Of a stretch of 6,203 nt of DNA, positions 1-6,203 are shown in pieces. The stretch comes from a virus. Made by a program: the position numbers and the translations under genes. The stretch is taken from the IMG/VR virus record IMGVR_UViG_3300045988_009266, positions 1 through 6,203 of that record; one strand, given 5' to 3'. Below the pieces are notes generated by a model. It made no database searches. It was not told the origin of the DNA and saw only the letters and a list, made by a program, of their open reading frames with translations. Numbering within the stretch: the stretch's first letter is position 1; every line of letters begins with the position of its first letter.

Positions 1-99
1 GTTGAAAAACGAACTAGAAGTAAAATCAGTTAAAGGAAACGAAAACAATATAGCAACACTAGCGCTAAGAAAATTTCTAGAGCGATGCAGAAAAAAAAC
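1..99. repeat. Terminal redundancy, copy 1 (identical to 6105..6203); wrap-around of a circular contig
   Basis: Base-by-base comparison shows that gttgaaaaacgaactagaag...agcgatgcagaaaaaaaac occurs at both window ends with offset 6104. Confidence 0.97.
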
Positions 100-769: not shown

Positions 770-824
770 CGCACGAAAGTTCGCCATGCTCGAGATTCTC
801 GCTGTACTCGACAGACACGAAGGT

Positions 825-837
825 GTTGCTTCGCAAC
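825..837 (+). other. Small hairpin (5-bp stem GTTGC/GCAAC, loop TTC) in the GC-rich intergenic island
   Basis: Perfect complementarity between 825..829 and 833..837. Confidence 0.4.
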
Positions 838-894
838 TCATTATTTTCCTCACGTTGTTCGGCCGTTCCTCGCTCTCCCAGCTCGTCACTTAGG

Positions 895-918
895 CACGCT
901 CGACCCGGTCGAGACGTG
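895..918 (+). other. GC-rich hairpin (10 bp with one bulged A, triloop CCG)
   Basis: cacgctcgac (895..904) pairs with gtcgag-a-cgtg (908..918), with A914 bulged. Seven of the ten pairs are G:C. Confidence 0.6.
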
Positions 919-933
919 TAACAGCATCAGGCT

Positions 934-955
934 GTTCTTTGTCTCGGCAAAGAAC
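934..955 (+). other. Perfect 8-bp hairpin GTTCTTTG / CAAAGAAC with 6-nt loop TCTCGG
   Basis: 934..941 pairs with 948..955. A T6 run follows at 976..981, but it is 20 nt away, so this is not a canonical intrinsic terminator. Confidence 0.6.
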
Positions 956-998
956 CAAACCGACCCCTTCTCTCATTTTTTATTAGCAATGCTGATGG

Positions 999-1022
999 AG
1001 AAGTGTTAAAGAAGTGTTAAAG
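999..1022 (+). repeat. Tandem direct repeat, 11-nt unit agaagtgttaa x 2.2
   Basis: The units 999..1009 and 1010..1020 are identical, followed by a partial third unit, ag. The repeat ends 12 nt upstream of the predicted -33 promoter element. Confidence 0.85.
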
Positions 1023-1033
1023 TCAGTCATTTA

Positions 1034-1065
1034 TTTGGTTGGCTTATGTTTTTGTATTATCTTTG
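1034..1065 (+). promoter_or_regulatory. Candidate Bacteroidetes-type promoter: -33 TTTG (1034..1037) and -7 TAnnTTTG (TATCTTTG, 1058..1065)
   Basis: Both elements match the published Bacteroides sigma-AB consensus exactly, with a 20-nt spacer. The predicted transcription start near 1072 would give a leader of about 43 nt to the first cassette ORF (ATG 1115). This is a motif match only. Confidence 0.4.
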
Positions 1066-1114
1066 TGGTGTGAGAAAAAGATAAACACCATTAAATAACA
1101 AAAAACTTACAATT

Positions 1115-1551: not shown

Positions 1552-1743
1552 ATGAGAAACAAGACAATAGCGGTGATTGCCGACAAAGAGACGGGAGTCA
1601 TCAAATCAATAGAAACAGAAGTAATCATCTTACAGAAGGAATTAGAATCTGAAATGAGATGGGAATGCATGGAAGCTATTAAGAGGCTTATAAACAAAAA
1701 GAAATACAAAATTATTAACATAAATACTTACTTTTATGACTAA
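1552..1743 (+). CDS. Hypothetical small protein (63 aa)
   Basis: ATG lies 1 nt after the upstream stop. The 3' end overlaps the next start by 8 nt (ATGACTAA, 1736..1743), which suggests translational coupling. I recognise no family. Confidence 0.5.
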   Translation: MRNKTIAVIADKETGVIKSIETEVIILQKELESEMRWECMEAIKRLINKKKYKIININTYFYD

Positions 1744-1930
1744 AGAACAGAAAGAAAAATTAATTACAGCAGTGGTTACATTCATCACCACAGTATTAAG
1801 CATCCTATTTTTACAGGCGTGCACAATGAGTATGAGTATCGCGAAAAACAATAACGGTACTTTTGAACAAAGACATGAAAACAGTACTAGTGTGGACAGT
1901 ACAAAGATTAATAACAATTTTAATAAGTAA
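1736..1930 (+). CDS. Putative small lipoprotein (64 aa precursor, about 36 aa mature); candidate lysis or superinfection-exclusion factor
   Basis: The N-terminus is MTKEQKEK (charged n-region), then LITAVVTFITTVLSILFL (18-residue hydrophobic h-region), then the lipobox-like L-Q-A-C with Cys29 at 1820..1822. A polar, Asn/Ser/Thr-rich tail follows. This is the signal peptidase II architecture read directly from the translation. Confidence 0.55.
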   Translation: MTKEQKEKLITAVVTFITTVLSILFLQACTMSMSIAKNNNGTFEQRHENSTSVDSTKINNNFNK

Positions 1931-1935
1931 AAATT

Positions 1936-2172
1936 ATGGAAAAAAACGGAATGAACCTATTCAGAATCGAAAAAACAAAAGTAAACGAAGAGGAAAGATT
2001 CGTAATTGTGTGCGGAAAATATCGCGCATCAAAAGTGGAATTCAAAACAAAAGAAAATGCAGAAGACTACATTGCAAACATGATAGATTGGGACATGTTA
2101 GTGACCATTGTAGGACAACTAAGCGAGTATATTGCAGAAAAAAAAGTAAACGAAATGTTAAATAATAAATAA
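1936..2172 (+). CDS. Hypothetical small protein (78 aa)
   Basis: ATG ORF starting 5 nt after the previous stop and ending 8 nt before the VP1 start. It has a balanced mix of hydrophobic and charged residues (FVIVCGKYRASKVEFKTKENAEDYIANMIDWDMLVTIVGQL). I recognise no family. Confidence 0.55.
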   Translation: MEKNGMNLFRIEKTKVNEEERFVIVCGKYRASKVEFKTKENAEDYIANMIDWDMLVTIVGQLSEYIAEKKVNEMLNNK

Positions 2173-2180
2173 GCAAGACT

Positions 2181-4193
2181 ATGGTTAAAAAAACTATCGG
2201 AAAAAACACGCTTGGGGATAACAACAAGATGAAAGTCGCTATGCGTGACTATGAGAGAAGTACACACAACCTCTCGTACATTTGGAGAAACACGCAAGCA
2301 CCAGGAACACTAGTTCCTTGCATGAAAATCTTAGCAACACCAGGTACAACATACAAGATTAAGGCAAACAGTCACATTCTAACACATCCTACTGTAGGAC
2401 CTCTATTCGGAAGTTACAAGTTTCAGATGGACATCTTTACGGTGCCTATCAGACTATACAATGCACTCCTTCACAATAACGCATTAAATGTAGGACTTGA
2501 TATGGCTAAAGTGAAATTTCCAAAATTTGCCATAACATTAGGGAAAGATAGTTCTAAAACTCCATGGAGCAGCAGCAGCCTATTAGCTTATCTAGGGTTT
2601 AGAAACAAGGGTCGAGAATTCTCAGATTCACTAGATTTCGTGCATAAATTTAATGCCATTCCCGCAATCGCATATTATGACATTTTTAAAAATTACTATG
2701 CGAACAAACAGGAAGAAAATTTCTACACAATCGGACTAGGCCAAACAGTAGAATTACCTTATCCAAATAATCAAAGCAATCCGATAAAAGTAATGATTAA
2801 ACCTGGGGGAGGGGCAGAATGGACTTTATCAAAAGCAAACTCAATCGATACTTATACCATAAAAACAGGATATGATTCTGCAATTATAGAAGTCGGGGAA
2901 TCCGTATTCCCTGCTAATGGAGATATAGAAGATTTAGTATTACTAGGTGAATATGGAGGGAAGCCAGGCAGTTCAACGCAATACGTGCAAATTACGGCGA
3001 AACAAGCAGCAGGAAACAAGAGAATCGAATATGCTAATAAAATCTGGCAGATACCATTCACTATAACAGACGACCCTAACAACAGAATATTTACGCTCAA
3101 AGCGATTAAAACATCAGGAGCAATTTCGCTAAAGTCTCATCCGTTAGAGGACATTGATAAGACTAGAGAAGAAATACTATCACTAGGCAGTCAAGAAGGG
3201 TTAATTCAATTCGAGAGAGGAAAAGGGAATATTACTCAAGAATACCTTAAAGACCTTATTCAAGTAGGATCAGAATTTTACAGCTCAAATCCTCAAATGG
3301 GACTAGTTGTAAAAACTTATCAATCAGATATTTTTAACAATTGGATTAATACAGAATGGATTGACGGAGAAAACGGAATCAATGCAATTACAGCGGTAGA
3401 CGTATCAGACGGGAAATTAGAATTAGACACACTGATTTTAGCGAAGAAGGTTTATAATATGCTGAACCGAATCGCAATCAGTGGAGGTACTTATAATGAT
3501 TGGATTGAAACAGTATATACAACCGATTACGTAAGTAGAAGCGAAATTCCCGAATATCAAGGGGGTATGTCTAGCGAAATTCAATTCCAGGAAGTTGTAA
3601 GTAATAGCGCAGCAGAAGGAGAACCGTTAGGAACACTAGCAGGTCGAGGAATTAACGTCGGCAAGAAAGGGGGAGACATCACAGTAAAAGTTACAGAGCC
3701 GTGTTATCTAATTGGTATATGCAGTATTACGCCAAGAGTAGATTACTCTCAAGGAAATGATTTTGACATTATGTTAGACAATCTTGACCAAATTCACAAA
3801 CCGCAACTTGACCAAATCGGATTCCAAGATTTAGTTACATGGAAGATGGACGCGAACCAAATTAAGTGGGTGAATGGGGTGCTAAAAGAGTATAGCGTAG
3901 GTAAGCAACCTGCGTGGATTGATTACATGACAAATTATAACAAAACATATGGAAACTTCGCTGTAGGAGAATCAGAGGCATTTATGGTCTTAAACAGAAT
4001 CTATCAAACAGAATGGGTCTCAAACGCCGGAAGCAACACGCCGAAACTGAACAGCTCAACATACATTGACCCGCAAGCGTATAACTATGTATTCGCAGAC
4101 ACAGACTTACAAAGTATGAATTTTTGGGTACAAATCGGATTCGATATCGAGGCTCGAATTGTAATGAGTGCCAAAGTAATGCCAACACTTTAA
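2181..4193 (+). CDS. Major capsid protein VP1 (Microviridae F-protein family), 670 aa
   Basis: Longest ORF in the window. As I recall them, the conserved microvirus capsid blocks are present: THNLSYIWRNTQAPGTLVP, FGSYKFQMDIFTVPIRLY, IPAIAYYDIFKNYYAN, PEYQGGMSSEIQFQEVVSNS, PLGTLAGRG, EPCYLIGICSITPRVDYSQGN, QPAWIDY and the C-terminal FWVQIGFDIEARIVMS. An alternative start at Met17 (2229) cannot be excluded. Confidence 0.95.
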   Translation: MVKKTIGKNTLGDNNKMKVAMRDYERSTHNLSYIWRNTQAPGTLVPCMKILATPGTTYKIKANSHILTHPTVGPLFGSYKFQMDIFTVPIRLYNALLHNNALNVGLDMAKVKFPKFAITLGKDSSKTPWSSSSLLAYLGFRNKGREFSDSLDFVHKFNAIPAIAYYDIFKNYYANKQEENFYTIGLGQTVELPYPNNQSNPIKVMIKPGGGAEWTLSKANSIDTYTIKTGYDSAIIEVGESVFPANGDIEDLVLLGEYGGKPGSSTQYVQITAKQAAGNKRIEYANKIWQIPFTITDDPNNRIFTLKAIKTSGAISLKSHPLEDIDKTREEILSLGSQEGLIQFERGKGNITQEYLKDLIQVGSEFYSSNPQMGLVVKTYQSDIFNNWINTEWIDGENGINAITAVDVSDGKLELDTLILAKKVYNMLNRIAISGGTYNDWIETVYTTDYVSRSEIPEYQGGMSSEIQFQEVVSNSAAEGEPLGTLAGRGINVGKKGGDITVKVTEPCYLIGICSITPRVDYSQGNDFDIMLDNLDQIHKPQLDQIGFQDLVTWKMDANQIKWVNGVLKEYSVGKQPAWIDYMTNYNKTYGNFAVGESEAFMVLNRIYQTEWVSNAGSNTPKLNSSTYIDPQAYNYVFADTDLQSMNFWVQIGFDIEARIVMSAKVMPTL

Positions 4194-4204
4194 TATTTTA
4201 TAAC

Positions 4205-4543
4205 ATGAAAAAAGTAGGAATTAATTACAGAAGCAAATTAGAAACAAAGCTAGTAGAAGGCGAAAGGCTTGAATTAAAAATTGACAGAATGACGCAAAAC
4301 AACGAACCTATCGGAGATAGCACGCCACTAATCTACACACCAAGGAAAGACGGAGTAATAGCAGCGTACGACATCCGTACAGATAAGTGGGATATTGCCT
4401 TAGATGCGATGGAGAAGGTTAATCGAACAAGAGGTAAGATATCAGAGCTAGGTGGTATGCGTGAAGCGAAGAAGAGTATTGACGAAGAAGCTAAGAAAGC
4501 CGTAGCCGACGGTGCAATTGATTCAAAAAATGAACTCAATTAG
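4205..4543 (+). CDS. Internal scaffolding protein VP3 (112 aa)
   Basis: The segment PLIYTPRKDGVIAAYDIRTDKWDIALDAMEKV resembles the conserved VP3 core of gokusho/alpa-type microviruses (..DIRTD.[FW][DE]IA..). I chose ATG 4205, 11 nt after the VP1 stop. The track start at 4124 would overlap VP1 by 70 nt and adds a Cys/Asn/Arg-rich stretch that does not look protein-like. Confidence 0.75.
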   Translation: MKKVGINYRSKLETKLVEGERLELKIDRMTQNNEPIGDSTPLIYTPRKDGVIAAYDIRTDKWDIALDAMEKVNRTRGKISELGGMREAKKSIDEEAKKAVADGAIDSKNELN

Positions 4544-4546
4544 CAT

Positions 4547-4675
4547 GTACCACTTTAGTGAGACAAGCTCATACGTGTGAAGTGAACGACCATTAAAACC
4601 GAAGATTCCGCGGGGACGCACGGCATAGATTGTCCAATAAGTTTACCGCGGAATCCTCTTTAAAGAGGGTGGTAC
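4547..4675 (+). other. Multi-helix structured intergenic element (candidate ssDNA replication/priming signal or structured RNA)
   Basis: P1 is GTACCAC (4547..4553) paired with GTGGTAC (4669..4675), 7 bp. P2 is GATTCCGCGG (4604..4613) paired with CCGCGGAATC (4646..4655), a perfect 10 bp, extended by GGAC (4614..4617) with GTCC (4632..4635). P3 is the palindrome CCTCTTTAAAGAGG (4655..4668). P2, P3 and the 3' strand of P1 abut with 0-1 nt linkers. I counted 42 G+C of 80 nt (52%) over 4601..4680. Confidence 0.65.
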
Positions 4676-4709
4676 GCACGTAGCATATATTATCTAGTTA
4701 TAATGTGGG

Positions 4710-4726
4710 GCTCTTTTAGAAAGAGC
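4710..4726 (+). other. Hairpin GCTCTTT / AAAGAGC (7 bp, loop TAG) 28 nt upstream of the VP2 start
   Basis: Perfect complementarity between 4710..4716 and 4720..4726. No U-tract follows, so I do not call it a terminator. Confidence 0.5.
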
Positions 4727-4754
4727 GAAATCAATGTAAAAAATTATTATTATT

Positions 4755-5867
4755 ATGGGATTTATCAAAAATGCACTAGGAATGATTGGCGATGCAGCCA
4801 CAGGGGGACTAGCAAGCGGAGTAGGAAGTTTTGTAAGCGGAATATTCGGAGATAGGGGGTTATCGAAGAAAGACCAATTAGAAATCATGAATAAACAGCA
4901 CGGGTATGAATTGGAAAACATGGATTACCAAGCGAAGCTTAATGAAGAGATGGCACAGAGAAACCAAGAGCGCCAAAACGAATACTTCGGAATGACAGCA
5001 GAATATAACTCAGCGAAAAACCAAAAACAACGACTGAAAGATGCAGGGTTGAATCCTGCATTAATGTACGGAAGTGCAGGAAGTGGCGGAGCAGGCACAG
5101 GAAGTACAGGAGGAGCAAGCGGAAGCGGTGTCGGATTATCACAAGCGCAAGCGGTAGGTATGGGACTACAACTAAGCCAAATCAAAGCACAAACGAACCT
5201 GATGAATGCGGAAGCAGCCAAAGCATACGCAGATGCAAACAAAACCAAGGGAGCAGACACAGACAAGGTGAACCAAGATATTGCAGAGAGCGAAGCTAGA
5301 ATCGAAGAAATTATAGCTAAGATACCTTCAGAAAAACAGCAATATTATATCGGCAAAGCGCATGAAGAGGCACTTAAGGCAAGTAAACTACTAACAGAAG
5401 CAGCAGCAGCCAAGACGGACGAAGAACGAAAGGTGCTAGCCGTCCAACAACATGTGTTGTTTAAAGAGGTTGATAAGATGGTTGCAGAAATCGAAGGAGT
5501 GGGATTAGACAACGATCAAAAGAAAATTATCAAAGATTCACTACAAAGAAGTATAAACTCTCATATATACCTGAATACAGCTCAAGCAATAGCAGCAGAA
5601 GCGAATGCTAAATTTACAAACGAAAACATAAAGACCATTGAAGGACAATTACAACTATGGTCAAAACAGGCTGAAAATTGGGAAGGTCAACGAGAGAATG
5701 TAAAAAGACAAATCGAAGAACAGGTTAAACAATGGGCTCAAGAAAACATGTTTGAAGGAAATAAAGTCAACTTAGAAAAGACAAGAACTATAGCAGATAT
5801 AATCCTAAGAAGCCTAGAAAGTGTTCAGAAAATTGGTCAGATAGTAGGAACAGCAATGATTAAGTAA
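4755..5867 (+). CDS. DNA pilot / minor capsid protein VP2 (phiX174 H-like), 370 aa
   Basis: The N-terminus is Gly-rich and hydrophobic (MGFIKNALGMIGDAATGGLASGVGSFVSGIFG). The motif KDAGLNPALMYG is followed by a poly-Gly/Ser/Ala/Thr tract (5070..5135). A long Ala/Glu/Lys/Gln-rich predicted coiled coil follows. Both the position immediately upstream of VP4 and this architecture are typical of microvirus pilot proteins. Confidence 0.85.
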   Translation: MGFIKNALGMIGDAATGGLASGVGSFVSGIFGDRGLSKKDQLEIMNKQHGYELENMDYQAKLNEEMAQRNQERQNEYFGMTAEYNSAKNQKQRLKDAGLNPALMYGSAGSGGAGTGSTGGASGSGVGLSQAQAVGMGLQLSQIKAQTNLMNAEAAKAYADANKTKGADTDKVNQDIAESEARIEEIIAKIPSEKQQYYIGKAHEEALKASKLLTEAAAAKTDEERKVLAVQQHVLFKEVDKMVAEIEGVGLDNDQKKIIKDSLQRSINSHIYLNTAQAIAAEANAKFTNENIKTIEGQLQLWSKQAENWEGQRENVKRQIEEQVKQWAQENMFEGNKVNLEKTRTIADIILRSLESVQKIGQIVGTAMIK

Positions 5868-5868
5868 T

Positions 5869-6203
5869 ATGTGTTTATATCCAAAATTAATTCCAAATCC
5901 TAAGTACAGGACATCTAAGAAGAGAGGGTACTACAAACCCTCTCCACATGATGCAAGACTGAATTATGTACCGGTAGCATGCGGGAAGTGCTACGAGTGT
6001 AGAAAAAAGAAAGCTAGAGAGTGGAGAATCAGACTAGCCGAAGAAATAAGGCACAACAAGAGCTATTTCGTAACATTAACGATTGACGATAATAATTTAG
6101 AAATGTTGAAAAACGAACTAGAAGTAAAATCAGTTAAAGGAAACGAAAACAATATAGCAACACTAGCGCTAAGAAAATTTCTAGAGCGATGCAGAAAAAA
6201 AAC
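5869..6203 (+). CDS. Replication initiator VP4, N-terminal part (true start ATG 5869). It continues into 1..769, and bases 6105..6203 duplicate 1..99.
   Basis: My translation is MCLYPKLIPNPKYRTSKKRGYYKPSPHDARLNYVPVACGKCYECRKKKAREWRIRLAEEIRHNKSYFVTLTIDDNNLEMLKNELEV..., with no stop to the window end. The Cys cluster CGKCYEC followed by W..R is typical of microvirus VP4 N-termini. Motif I FVTLT is at 6067..6081. The ATG follows the VP2 stop in a TAATATG junction. The full protein is 334 aa (236 + 769 nt). Confidence 0.88.
   Translation, partial: MCLYPKLIPNPKYRTSKKRGYYKPSPHDARLNYVPVACGKCYECRKKKAREWRIRLAEEIRHNKSYFVTLTIDDNNLEMLKNELEVKSVKGNENNIATLALRKFLERCRKK
6105..6203. repeat. Terminal redundancy, copy 2 (identical to 1..99)
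   Basis: Same as above. The repeat lies inside the Rep coding sequence, so it is not a biological terminal repeat. Confidence 0.97.

What the first reader, a model, noticed from the sequence alone, without database searches (positions are those of the whole stretch)
1736..1930. Predicted 36-residue mature lipoprotein in a microvirus: candidate single-gene lysis or exclusion factor
The 64-aa product has a textbook lipoprotein signal. This consists of a Lys/Glu n-region, an 18-residue hydrophobic core and L-Q-A-C, with the Cys codon at 1820..1822. A short polar tail follows (TMSMSIAKNNNGTFEQRHENSTSVDSTKINNNFNK).

Non-phiX microviruses have no characterised lysis gene, and nothing here looks like phiX174 E or a peptidoglycan hydrolase. 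Three kinds of very small lipoprotein have relevant activities:
- colicin release/lysis proteins (about 27-35 aa mature);
- outer-membrane spanin subunits of the Rz1 type;
- phage exclusion lipoproteins such as T5 Llp, which blocks its own receptor.

Any of these roles would be unusual for Microviridae.
Basis: partly seen in the sequence, partly recalled or inferred. Interest (0 to 1): 0.7.

Follow-up and report, generated by a model that had tools for sequence, protein, structure and literature searches.

The report
Conserved small lipoprotein of gut microviruses
This 6.1-kb single-stranded DNA phage carries a real and very tightly conserved gene for a tiny membrane-anchored lipoprotein; the family is widespread in gut microviruses, is not described in any paper I could find, and is the best candidate in this genome for the unknown factor that bursts the host cell, though that role is untested.

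Summary
It encodes 64 aa: a K/E n-region, a 20-residue uncharged core, L-Q-A-C with Cys29 at 1820..1822, and a 35-residue polar tail.

- **It is a gene.** Among 11 relatives, variable sites fall 12/9/48 by codon position. Its dN/dS of 0.030 is the lowest in the genome.
- **It belongs to a large family.** There are 2,773 clusters at 90% identity and 105 representatives at 50% identity. Members were found only on microvirus genomes or fragments, apart from two chimeric or unresolved contigs, including lineages whose capsid is only 22-29% identical.
- **The lipoprotein features hold across 74 intact representatives.** The Cys is invariant and position -1 is S/A/G in 95%. No acidic surface-export signal follows the Cys. 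A D-S/T-(T/I/A/V/L) motif sits at a fixed place and matches the Bacteroidota O-glycosylation sequon.
- **The signal half resembles cellular proteins.** It is related to 30-aa Bacteroidota "smalltalk"/DUF6486 proteins.
- **No other lysis candidate is visible.** The genome has no peptidoglycan hydrolase, spanin partner or other membrane ORF.

My best reading is a periplasm-facing lipopeptide, possibly glycosylated, that acts as the lysis effector. Exclusion remains possible. The function is inferred, not shown.

The parts
1736..1930 (+). Complete ORF (64 codons plus TAA) for the small prolipoprotein
   Evidence: Searches give the ORF. Codon-position variability is 12/9/48. dN/dS is 0.030, the lowest in the genome. 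The exact protein is in NCBI nr as DAX04276.1, 'hypothetical protein', and was seen on 48 contigs.
1736..1819 (+). Predicted signal peptide (residues 1-28): n-region MTKEQKEK, then a 20-residue uncharged core
   Evidence: AlphaFold2 models a helix over residues 3-38, with pLDDT 88-96 for the first 20 residues. dN/dS for this half alone is 0.020. A profile-profile comparison with cellular smalltalk/DUF6486 peptides gives 76.7% probability, E 2e-5, aligned Cys to Cys.
1811..1822 (+). Lipobox L-Q-A-C; Cys29 codon TGC at 1820-1822
   Evidence: Passes the PROSITE-type rule. Across 74 representatives at 50% identity, Cys is 74/74 and position -1 is S56/A11/G3.
1823..1852 (+). Conserved start of the mature peptide, T-M-S-M-S-I-A-K-N-N (+2 to +11). 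Polar and hydrophobic residues alternate, and there are no acidic residues.
   Evidence: +2 T in 62/74, +4 S/T in 63/74, +5 L/M in 60/74, +7 V/I in 65/74, +9 K in 63/74, +11 N in 56/74. D/E count in +2 to +7 is 0 in 74/74. The Bacteroidota surface-export signal is C-X-K-(D/E)2 or SDDDD (PMC5080379).
1895..1903 (+). D54-S55-T56, an invariant motif that matches the Bacteroidota O-glycosylation sequon D-(S/T)-(A/I/L/V/M/T)
   Evidence: D54 and S55 are invariant in the A2 alignment; D54 alone is invariant in A1, where the L016/L019 branch carries D-T. The motif is present 23-28 residues after the Cys in 75 of 92 representatives. Third residue counts are T53/I9/A8/V4/L3. The 17 exceptions lose similarity to the family part-way along and look frameshifted or chimeric. 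The sequon is taken from PMC8550257 and PMC12871550.
1736..1743 (+). ATGACTAA: the start codon overlaps the stop of the upstream 63-aa ORF (1552-1743), suggesting translational coupling within the small-ORF cluster
   Evidence: Read directly from the sequence. None of the nine genes has a Shine-Dalgarno motif upstream.
1936..2172 (+). Downstream 78-aa ORF, the other widely conserved accessory gene. It has no membrane segment.
   Evidence: tblastn homologues occur in L011-L013, L016, L019, L030, L031 and L035. No hydrophobic segment was found.
2181..4193 (+). Major capsid protein VP1. The lipoprotein gene lies just upstream of it in most relatives.
   Evidence: Pfam Phage_F and PHROG 514. Synteny is seen in L001-L019, L029, L031, L032, L036, L038, L040, L045, L046 and L050.
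1034..1065 (+). Candidate Bacteroides-type promoter (TTTG-N-TAnnTTTG) in the highly conserved intergenic segment ahead of the small-ORF cluster
   Evidence: It is the only match in the genome, but 0.34 matches are expected by chance, so this is weak. Segment 951-1114 is 94-97% identical in eight of the ten close relatives (84-88% over a shorter stretch in L007 and L009), higher than most of the neighbouring small ORFs in most relatives.

Best explanation
ORF 1736..1930 is a genuine, strongly constrained gene of a circular 6.1-kb microvirus that very probably infects Bacteroidota.

**Proposed pathway (inferred).**
1. The product is exported through Sec.
2. It is lipid-modified on Cys29 and cleaved by signal peptidase II.
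3. This leaves a roughly 36-residue S/T/N/Q-rich lipopeptide tethered to a membrane and facing the periplasm.
4. The lipopeptide is probably O-glycosylated on Ser55 within the invariant D-S-T sequon.

**Proposed function (inferred, untested).** It is the phage's single-gene lysis effector and acts on a conserved envelope component of the host, not on a phage-specific one. The closest analogy is the colicin release (lysis) lipoproteins. In those, a very small acylated peptide and its unusually stable signal peptide together destabilise the envelope.

**Shown versus inferred.**
- Shown: gene reality, family membership, the conservation pattern, the motif content, and the lack of any other lysis candidate.
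- Inferred: processing, glycosylation, location and the lysis role.
For: **Gene reality and constraint.**
- Variable sites fall 12/9/48 by codon position.
- dN/dS is 0.030 at dS 0.89. Other genes: Rep 0.040, VP1 0.100, VP2 0.098, other small ORFs 0.09-0.20.

**Lipoprotein features.**
- It passes the PROSITE-type rule and is the only such ORF in the window.
- In 74 representatives sharing 50% identity or less, the Cys is 74/74 and position -1 is S/A/G in 70/74.
- The signal half is related to 30-aa cellular smalltalk/DUF6486 proteins, which end one residue after the same Cys. The L032 orthologue scores above both curated cut-offs: PF20096 29 bits against 22.7, and NF033879 36.3 bits against 24.7. 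The window subfamily aligns by hhalign at 76.7% probability.

**Periplasmic exposure.**
- No D/E occurs at +2 to +7 in 74/74, so there is no surface-export signal.
- An invariant D-[ST]-[TIAVL] sits at a fixed position and matches the sequon used only on non-cytoplasmic Bacteroidota proteins.

**Bacteroidota host.**
- An integrated relative lies in a Phocaeicola MAG.
- No gene has a Shine-Dalgarno motif.
- The smalltalk relationship and the sequon point the same way.

**Lysis role, by elimination and distribution.**
- No peptidoglycan hydrolase or E-like ORF is present, and this is the only ORF with a membrane-grade hydrophobic segment.
- Within 34 capsid-related loci it never co-occurs with other small membrane ORFs found at the same Rep-to-VP1 locus: 21, 8 and 0 loci, Fisher p = 7e-5 without correction for phylogeny. 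Non-orthologous replacement of this kind is typical of lysis genes.
- The isolated Bacteroides fragilis microvirus phiHBP1 lacks the gene and carries what looks, by eye, like an M15-type peptidase ORF; I did not scan that ORF against Pfam.
- The family is kept at 37-45% identity in microviruses whose capsid is only 22-29% identical and whose gene order differs. This argues for a host target rather than a phage-specific one.
- It is absent from the one clearly integrated relative, L035.
Against: - There is no experimental evidence, and no predictor such as SignalP or LipoP could be run.
- The uncharged core is 20 residues and the Cys sits at position 29. That is long for a signal peptidase II substrate and also fits an uncleaved signal-anchor.
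- Q, and in relatives E, at position -2 is unusual for a lipobox.
- Known single-gene lysis proteins evolve fast and are poorly conserved. A dN/dS of 0.03 is atypical for them.
- Lysis need not involve a membrane protein, so one of the four cytoplasmic small ORFs could be the lysis gene.
- Three apparently complete relatives (L022, L024, L030) show no small membrane ORF at all.
- A three-residue sequon arises by chance in about 14% of peptides of this composition. It could be conserved for another reason.
- The mutual-exclusivity count is confounded by phylogeny.
- AlphaFold2 gave no confident model of the mature part.
Confidence: 0.4

Rival explanations
1. Superinfection exclusion or protection of progeny. 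The periplasm-facing lipoprotein would bind the receptor or an entry component. It would then block adsorption or DNA delivery by the same or related microviruses, as T5 Llp does with FhuA and Cor does in phi80/N15.
For: - It is a small lipoprotein made by a lytic phage, and Llp also acts from the periplasmic side (my own knowledge).
- It has no surface-export signal.
- Strong conservation suits a binder of a conserved host protein.
- The scaffold L053, if it is a true integration, would allow expression from a prophage.
Against: - The protein is nearly invariant (94% identity), whereas capsid and pilot proteins of the same genomes diverge to about 82%.
- It is shared by microviruses with capsids only 22-29% identical, which are unlikely to use one receptor.
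- It is absent from the one clearly integrated relative.
- A nine-gene genome has little room for an accessory function kept under dN/dS 0.03.
- There is no similarity to Llp, Cor or Ltp families, and no PADLOC match.
Confidence: 0.17
2. An uncleaved bitopic membrane protein with the N terminus inside and the C terminus outside. The conserved transmembrane helix would itself be the effector, inhibiting an inner-membrane enzyme as the phiX174 E helix inhibits MraY, or acting like a holin. The Cys would serve another role, such as a periplasmic disulfide.
For: - The uncharged core is 20 residues, long enough to span a membrane.
- The helix is modelled with high confidence.
- The signal half is more constrained than the tail, with dN/dS 0.020 against 0.048.
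- Individual helix positions are conserved across the family.
- The helix is related to stand-alone 30-aa cellular peptides.
Against: - The Cys is invariant with a small residue at -1 in 95%, and +2 is a conserved Thr. This is the pattern of a signal peptidase II site.
- The cellular relatives stop one residue after the Cys, which is hard to explain without processing at that Cys.
- The 35-residue tail is also under strong constraint.
Confidence: 0.15
3. An outer-membrane spanin subunit of the Rz1 type, completing lysis by fusing the inner and outer membranes after the wall is degraded.
For: - The size and lipobox resemble Rz1.
- Single family members give weak PHROG matches to 'Rz-like spanin', with E 0.006 and 0.028.
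Against: - No i-spanin is present, meaning no type II membrane protein with a periplasmic coiled coil next to or around the gene.
- The genome has no endolysin or holin.
- The mature part is not proline-rich and has no Cys beyond the lipobox Cys.
- The PHROG hits are not significant and are not shared by other members.
Confidence: 0.03
4. Another envelope-directed role unrelated to release or exclusion. Examples are changing vesicle production, changing surface glycans, or interfering with host lipoprotein or glycan trafficking to favour replication.
For: - It is exported and membrane-tethered, with a glycosylation sequon.
- Nothing in the data ties it directly to lysis.
Against: - Such accessory roles rarely show the strongest purifying selection in a nine-gene genome.
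- They do not explain the mutual exclusivity with other small membrane ORFs at the same locus.
Confidence: 0.15

Closest known systems
Colicin/bacteriocin release (lysis) lipoproteins (Pfam Lysis_col, PF02402)
   Same: Both have a very small prolipoprotein (about 45-65 aa, mature about 28-36 aa) with a polar mature peptide. Both are encoded by a small selfish replicon that must get a product out of a Gram-negative cell. In both, the signal peptide is unusually important: in this family it is under dN/dS 0.020, and in the colicin proteins it is stable and contributes to lethality (my own knowledge).
   Different: There is no sequence similarity; none of 11 family members matches PF02402 at E 0.1 or better. 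The host phylum differs. Dependence on a phospholipase is unknown. This family has a conserved glycosylation sequon and a long 20-residue core.
Bacteroidota 'smalltalk' proteins (NCBIfam NF033879 / Pfam DUF6486, PF20096)
   Same: The N-terminal 28-32 residues align Cys to Cys. The L032 orthologue passes both curated thresholds. The window subfamily aligns at 76.7% hhalign probability.
   Different: The cellular proteins are about 30 aa, end one residue after the Cys, and sit beside HU-HIG genes. The phage proteins add a conserved tail of about 36 residues. The window's own protein gives no direct hit to either model.
phiX174 protein E (single-gene lysis in Microviridae)
   Same: It is a small membrane-targeted protein of a microvirus with no wall hydrolase, and its N-terminal hydrophobic helix is under constraint.
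   Different: E is overprinted inside gene D, is not a lipoprotein, and has its soluble part in the cytoplasm. This gene has its own reading frame with free synonymous sites (dS 0.89) and a periplasmic tail.
T5 Llp and phi80/N15 Cor exclusion lipoproteins
   Same: They are phage-encoded small lipoproteins that act on the envelope from the periplasmic side.
   Different: There is no sequence similarity. The mature part here is about half the size of Llp and has no disulfide pair. Its conservation is uncoupled from capsid divergence.
Rz1-type o-spanins
   Same: Both have a lipobox and a short mature peptide.
   Different: There is no i-spanin partner and no endolysin, and the mature part is not proline-rich.
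M15 peptidases of some Alpavirinae and Gokushovirinae (proposed endolysins; PMC3394797)
   Same: Both are accessory genes of gut microviruses proposed to serve in release.
   Different: M15 is an enzyme acquired from hosts or tailed phages. It is absent from this window and from the 36 microvirus genomes and fragments compared by tblastn (L001-L034, L036, window); Bacteroides phage phiHBP1 supplied the M15-like query and lacks the lipoprotein.

Membership tests
Bacterial lipoprotein (signal peptidase II substrate; PROSITE PS51257 rule) | K/R in the first 7 residues, an uncharged core, [LIVMFWSTAG]2-[LIVMFYSTAGCQ]-[AGS]-C, and the Cys at position 15-35 | tested here: met
   My regex version of the rule finds K3/K6, core L9-A28, F-L-Q-A-C and Cys29. 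Across the family the Cys is 74/74 and position -1 is S/A/G in 95%.
Bacterial lipoprotein (signal peptidase II substrate; PROSITE PS51257 rule) | Actual diacylglyceryl modification and globomycin-sensitive cleavage | not testable with these tools
   This needs labelling and processing experiments. No SignalP or LipoP was available.
smalltalk / DUF6486 (NF033879, PF20096) | Score above the curated cut-off of the 29-31 position model | tested here: not met
   The window protein has no hit at E 1 or better in NCBIfam and no PF20096 hit at E 0.1 or better in Pfam. Its homologue in L032 does pass, at 36.3 bits against 24.7 and 29 bits against 22.7. hhalign of the window subfamily against smalltalk gives 76.7% probability. 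The relationship is therefore indirect.
Colicin lysis proteins (PF02402 Lysis_col) | Sequence match to the family model | tested here: not met
   No hit at E 0.1 or better for the window protein or for the 10 other family members.
Two-component spanin (Rz/Rz1) | An adjacent or embedded i-spanin gene (type II membrane protein with a periplasmic coiled coil), plus an endolysin | tested here: not met
   This ORF is the only one of 160 aa or fewer with a membrane-grade segment. No hydrolase is found by Pfam or PHROGs.
Bacteroidota surface-exposed lipoproteins | An acidic export signal just after the Cys (C-X-K-(D/E)2 or SDDDD; PMC5080379) | tested here: not met
   +2 to +7 is T-M-S-M-S-I, and D/E is absent there in 74/74 representatives.
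Bacteroidota O-glycoproteins | The sequon D-(S/T)-(A/I/L/V/M/T) in a non-cytoplasmic segment | tested here: met
   D54-S55-T56 is present, and the motif is conserved at a fixed position with only T/I/A/V/L as the third residue. Occupancy by a glycan was not tested.
Known anti-phage defence or exclusion proteins (PADLOC) | Match to any model | tested here: not met
   No match at E 1 or better for six family members.

The most novel reading that the evidence does not exclude
The gene encodes a new class of phage 'protein antibiotic' specific to Bacteroidota. It would be a glycosylation-competent lipopeptide, possibly working together with its released smalltalk-like signal peptide, that causes lysis by hitting a periplasmic or envelope target not used by any known single-gene lysis protein.

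One concrete version is as follows. The membrane-tethered invariant D-S-T sequon engages the phylum-wide O-glycosylation machinery and ties up undecaprenyl-linked intermediates. This would starve wall synthesis.

If true, this would be the first lysis gene identified for the abundant gut microviruses and a new druggable weak point in Bacteroidota.
Probability: 0.3. Interest if true: 0.85.

Novelty: new variant of a known kind. Interest (0 to 1): 0.65.

Why it matters
- **An open question.** Outside phiX174, how microviruses get out of their hosts is essentially unknown, although they are among the most abundant phages of the vertebrate gut.
- **A concrete candidate.** This gene is the most strongly constrained in its genome. 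It is shared by thousands of microvirus variants across deeply divergent capsid lineages. It is the only exported protein these phages encode.
- **Readily testable.** The protein is 64 residues long, and one Cys and one Ser are the obvious point mutants. Genetic tools exist for Bacteroides, and a Bacteroides microvirus has now been isolated (PMC13064476).
- **What a lysis role would reveal.** It would expose a new envelope target in a dominant gut phylum.
- **Value even if the role differs.** This would still be the first phage-encoded member linked to the enigmatic 'smalltalk' peptides, and possibly the first phage protein that uses the Bacteroidota O-glycosylation system.
- **Annotation problem.** Pipelines currently label the protein 'hypothetical', or wrongly 'LolB'.

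Tried and rejected
- **No close annotated relative.** Megablast of the whole window against GenBank phages found nothing. Relatives had to be reached through protein searches.
- **Structure.** AlphaFold2 with a 14-sequence alignment gave only the N-terminal helix and a low-confidence tail, so I ran no fold search. A profile search of the PDB found nothing.
- **Family libraries.** PADLOC, Rfam, and PHROGs and Pfam for the window protein gave no significant match. The sub-threshold DUF6712 hit did not recur in other members.
- **A recollection that did not hold.** I remembered cellular smalltalk genes as lying next to N-acetylmuramoyl-L-alanine amidase genes, which would have linked the module to wall hydrolysis. 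The three loci I could read do not support this; the constant neighbour is an HU-HIG gene.
- **Integration evidence.** I looked for integrated copies carrying the lipoprotein. L055 is an assembly chimera with GC-rich non-coding DNA. L053 joins the phage to Bacteroidota-type genes at a different phage position. Integration is therefore unproven.
- **Other ORFs.** The K/R-rich overlapping ORF 1863-2165 and the antisense ORF 1642-1917 are rejected as genes, because they are interrupted in relatives.
- **Intergenic fold.** Folding the GC-rich intergenic DNA as single-stranded DNA gave nothing (z = -0.8).
Full report
**What the window is.** The 6,203 bases are a circular microvirus genome with a 99-nt terminal overlap, so the unit length is 6,104 nt. 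All genes lie on the + strand:
- Five tightly packed small ORFs at 1115-1327, 1329-1550, 1552-1743, 1736-1930 and 1936-2172.
- The major capsid protein VP1 at 2181-4193 (Pfam Phage_F, PHROG 514).
- A 112-aa VP3-like ORF at 4205-4543.
- The pilot protein VP2 at 4755-5867.
- The replication initiator, from 5869 across the junction to 769 (PF23343).

Megablast found no close relative among GenBank phages. By protein, the nearest annotated capsids are below 50% identical and come from gut or faecal microviruses.

**Checking the observation.** The uncharged core is 20 residues (L9-A28), not 18. The protein satisfies a PROSITE PS51257-type rule that I coded myself, and it is the only ORF in the six frames of the window that does. 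In 34 capsid-related genomes, every + strand ORF passing the rule was a homologue of this one at the same locus. The scattered - strand hits were not conserved.

**It is a gene under very strong selection.** I compared the window with ten relatives whose capsids are 67-94% identical.
- Variable sites in the ORF fall 12/9/48 on codon positions 1/2/3.
- Nei-Gojobori dN/dS is 0.030 with dS 0.89. That is the lowest in the genome: Rep 0.040, VP3-like 0.085, VP2 0.098, VP1 0.100, the other small ORFs 0.09-0.20.
- Synonymous sites are free, so the constraint acts on the protein and not on an overlapping DNA element.
- The overlapping +3-frame basic ORF and the antisense ORF are broken in relatives.
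- Both halves are constrained: dN/dS is 0.020 for the signal half and 0.048 for the mature half.

**It is a large, unannotated family found almost only on microvirus sequence.**
- A single-sequence search returned 228 clusters at 90% identity. The best 120 are 89-97% identical and almost all intact.
- A profile of divergent members returned 2,773 clusters, and every listed hit lay on a contig of about 9 kb or less.
- An exhaustive HMM search of 1.84 billion 50%-identity representatives found 105, nearly all 45-125 aa.
- 66 GenBank microvirus records from humans, lemurs, tortoises, rats and chickens carry the gene. It is annotated 'hypothetical protein' or not at all.
- The exact window protein is DAX04276.1, 'hypothetical protein'. 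JGI's occasional name 'LolB' is an automatic mislabel.
- Divergent members lie directly upstream of VP1 on microvirus fragments.
- The family also occurs in microviruses whose VP1 is only 22-29% identical to the window's. Some of these have another gene order, with the lipoprotein between VP2 and Rep, for example Dulem virus 245 and chicken microvirus mg8_48. The lipoprotein itself stays 37-45% identical.
- No paper in the searchable library mentions a microvirus-encoded lipoprotein. The key comparative papers discuss only M15 peptidases as accessory lysis genes.

**Anatomy across the family.** I anchored 74 intact representatives on the Cys.
- The Cys is 74/74, and position -1 is S (56), A (11) or G (3).
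- Position -2 is variable and often Q, which is unusual for a lipobox. PROSITE allows it, and it resembles local Bacteroidota examples.
- +2 is T in 62.
- +3, +5 and +7 are hydrophobic while +2, +4 and +6 are S/T. I read this as an amphipathic beta-strand pattern, which is my inference.
- +9 is K in 63 and +11 is N in 56.
- The median mature length is 37 residues, and the composition is rich in S, T, N, Q and K.
- No acidic residue occurs at +2 to +7 in any member. Bacteroidota lipoproteins that reach the cell surface carry C-X-K-(D/E)2 or SDDDD there (PMC5080379). The prediction is therefore a periplasm-facing lipoprotein.

**A conserved glycosylation sequon.** D54 and S55 are invariant in the A2 alignment; only D54 is invariant in A1, where the L016/L019 branch carries D-T.
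- In 75 of 92 representatives, D-[ST]-[AILVMT] lies 23-28 residues after the Cys. The third residue is T (53), I (9), A (8), V (4) or L (3), and nothing else.
- The 17 exceptions lose similarity to the family part-way along and look frameshifted or chimeric.
- This is the Bacteroidota general O-glycosylation motif D-(S/T)-(A/I/L/V/M/T). That motif is used only on non-cytoplasmic proteins and is sufficient when engineered into a protein (PMC8550257; PMC12871550).
- A composition-matched peptide would contain such a triplet by chance about 14% of the time. The argument therefore rests on positional invariance and on the substitution pattern.
- Glycosylation itself is untested.

**The signal half resembles cellular 'smalltalk' peptides.**
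- The orthologue in L032 matches Pfam DUF6486 (E 8e-7, 29 bits, cut-off 22.7) and NCBIfam NF033879 'smalltalk protein' (36.3 bits, cut-off 24.7) over the whole 29-31 position models.
- Other members give sub-threshold hits.
- The window subfamily aligns to two cellular smalltalk sequences at 76.7% hhalign probability, Cys on Cys. The window protein alone gives no hit.
- Cellular smalltalk proteins, for example MKKEVWKTILQMLIAVLTAIGTTLGVTSCM, stop one residue after the Cys. In three unrelated chromosomal contexts they sit next to an HU-HIG gene.
- Together with the very low dN/dS of the signal half, this suggests that the hydrophobic peptide is more than a disposable leader.

**Host.** Several independent hints point to Bacteroidota.
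- A relative with 44% VP1 identity is integrated between bacterial genes in a Phocaeicola MAG.
- The smalltalk relationship and the O-glycosylation sequon fit this phylum.
- None of the nine genes has a Shine-Dalgarno motif upstream.
- The single genome-wide match to a Bacteroides-type promoter lies in the most conserved intergenic segment, although 0.34 matches are expected by chance.
- Scaffold L053 joins a complete close relative to GH95, heparinase and hybrid two-component regulator genes. A second long contig (L055) is plainly chimeric and the junction positions differ, so I do not count L053 as proof of integration.

**What it probably does.** The genome has no peptidoglycan hydrolase, no E-like overprinted ORF, no holin and no spanin partner. 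This ORF is the only one with a membrane-grade hydrophobic segment.
- In the 34 capsid-related loci, 21 carry this family.
- Eight carry a different small membrane ORF at the same Rep-to-VP1 locus. One recurrent type is '...GC[WY]EV.ARA.PTVNNW...'; another is a 50-aa type II protein.
- None carries both (Fisher p = 7e-5, not corrected for phylogeny).
- Bacteroides fragilis phage phiHBP1 lacks the lipoprotein and has an ORF that looks, by eye, like an M15 peptidase; I did not scan it against Pfam.
- Swapping of non-homologous membrane or lytic genes at one locus is typical of lysis functions.
- Retention of the family across very different capsids and pilot proteins argues that the target is a conserved host component rather than a phage-specific one.

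I therefore rank a lysis role first. The colicin release lipoproteins are the closest working analogy: a tiny acylated peptide together with a functionally important signal peptide. No homology is detectable.

**Weak points.**
- The 20-residue core and the Cys at position 29 also fit an uncleaved signal-anchor.
- Known single-gene lysis proteins are usually poorly conserved, unlike this one.
- A cytoplasmic small ORF could be the true lysis gene.
- Three complete relatives show no small membrane ORF.
- Exclusion of the Llp or Cor kind is not ruled out. It fits less well with the uncoupling from capsid divergence, and with absence from the one integrated relative.
- A spanin role fails its defining test.

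**Verdict.** This is a new, very common family of small, probably glycosylated, lipoproteins of Bacteroidota-associated microviruses, and the leading candidate for their unknown lysis factor. Its function awaits a simple expression test and a knockout test.

Noticed in passing
window 951-1114: This intergenic segment ahead of the small-ORF cluster is 94-97% nucleotide-identical in eight of the ten close relatives, higher than most of the neighbouring small ORFs in most relatives. It holds a tandem 11-mer (GAAGTGTTAAA twice, about 1000-1022) and the genome's only match to a Bacteroides-type promoter (1034-1065). It is probably a cis-acting promoter or origin region.
   Followed up: partly
window 770-950: A stretch of roughly 45-50% GC (window averages 41-43%) in a genome that is otherwise 31-38% GC here, lying just after the Rep stop codon. 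It shows no significant single-strand fold (z = -0.8). The junction of scaffold L053 with bacterial DNA falls here, at about position 789.
   Followed up: partly
window 1-99 and 6105-6203: A 99-nt terminal direct repeat shows the contig is a circular genome of 6,104 nt. The Rep gene runs across the junction (5869 to 769).
   Followed up: yes
window 1863-2165 (+3 frame): A 100-aa, very K/R-rich ORF overlaps the end of the lipoprotein gene and all of the 78-aa ORF. It is open in most close relatives but carries stop codons in L002, L003 and L009, so it is probably a by-product of A-rich codons.
   Followed up: yes
L020:104-283, L021:2213-2365, L023:4679-4831, L027:3191-3358, L034:3538-3696, L028:4902-5069: A second family of 50-59 aa small membrane proteins ('...GC[WY]EV.ARA.PTVNNW.GTAI...') sits at the same Rep-to-VP1 locus in more distant relatives that lack the lipoprotein. 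Its Cys is not conserved in L028, so it is probably not a lipoprotein. It may be an alternative lysis or holin-like gene.
   Followed up: partly
L041:3312-3422, L051:378-566, L052:626-925: Cellular 'smalltalk'/DUF6486 genes encode about 30 aa: a lipoprotein-type signal, the Cys and one more residue. They are paired with an HU-HIG DNA-binding gene in three unrelated chromosomal neighbourhoods (uvrB/prs, GtrA, hisG), as if the pair were a small mobile two-gene module.
   Followed up: partly
L053:7600-13936: In this ENA scaffold a full-length close relative of the window phage (85% nt identity, same nine genes) abuts GH95, heparinase II/III and a truncated hybrid two-component regulator. The contig ends inside the repeat of the phage start. 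This is either an integration into a Bacteroidota chromosome or an assembly chimera. L055 is a clear chimera with a different junction.
   Followed up: partly
L047 (PP511488) 4175-4372; L049 (MN379648) 4530-4733: In some GenBank microviruses the lipoprotein gene lies between VP2 and Rep rather than upstream of VP1. Their capsids are only 22-29% identical to the window's, which suggests either an ancient origin or transfer of the gene between microvirus lineages.
   Followed up: partly
L035:3289-8462: A microvirus integrated in a Phocaeicola MAG (VP1 44% identical) keeps the 78-aa-ORF homologue, VP1, VP3-like, VP2 and Rep. It has neither the lipoprotein nor any other small membrane ORF.
   Followed up: partly
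window 1936-2172: The 78-aa ORF just downstream is, apart from the lipoprotein, the only small ORF conserved in distant relatives (21-40% identity, including the prophage). It has no family match and its function is unknown.
   Followed up: no
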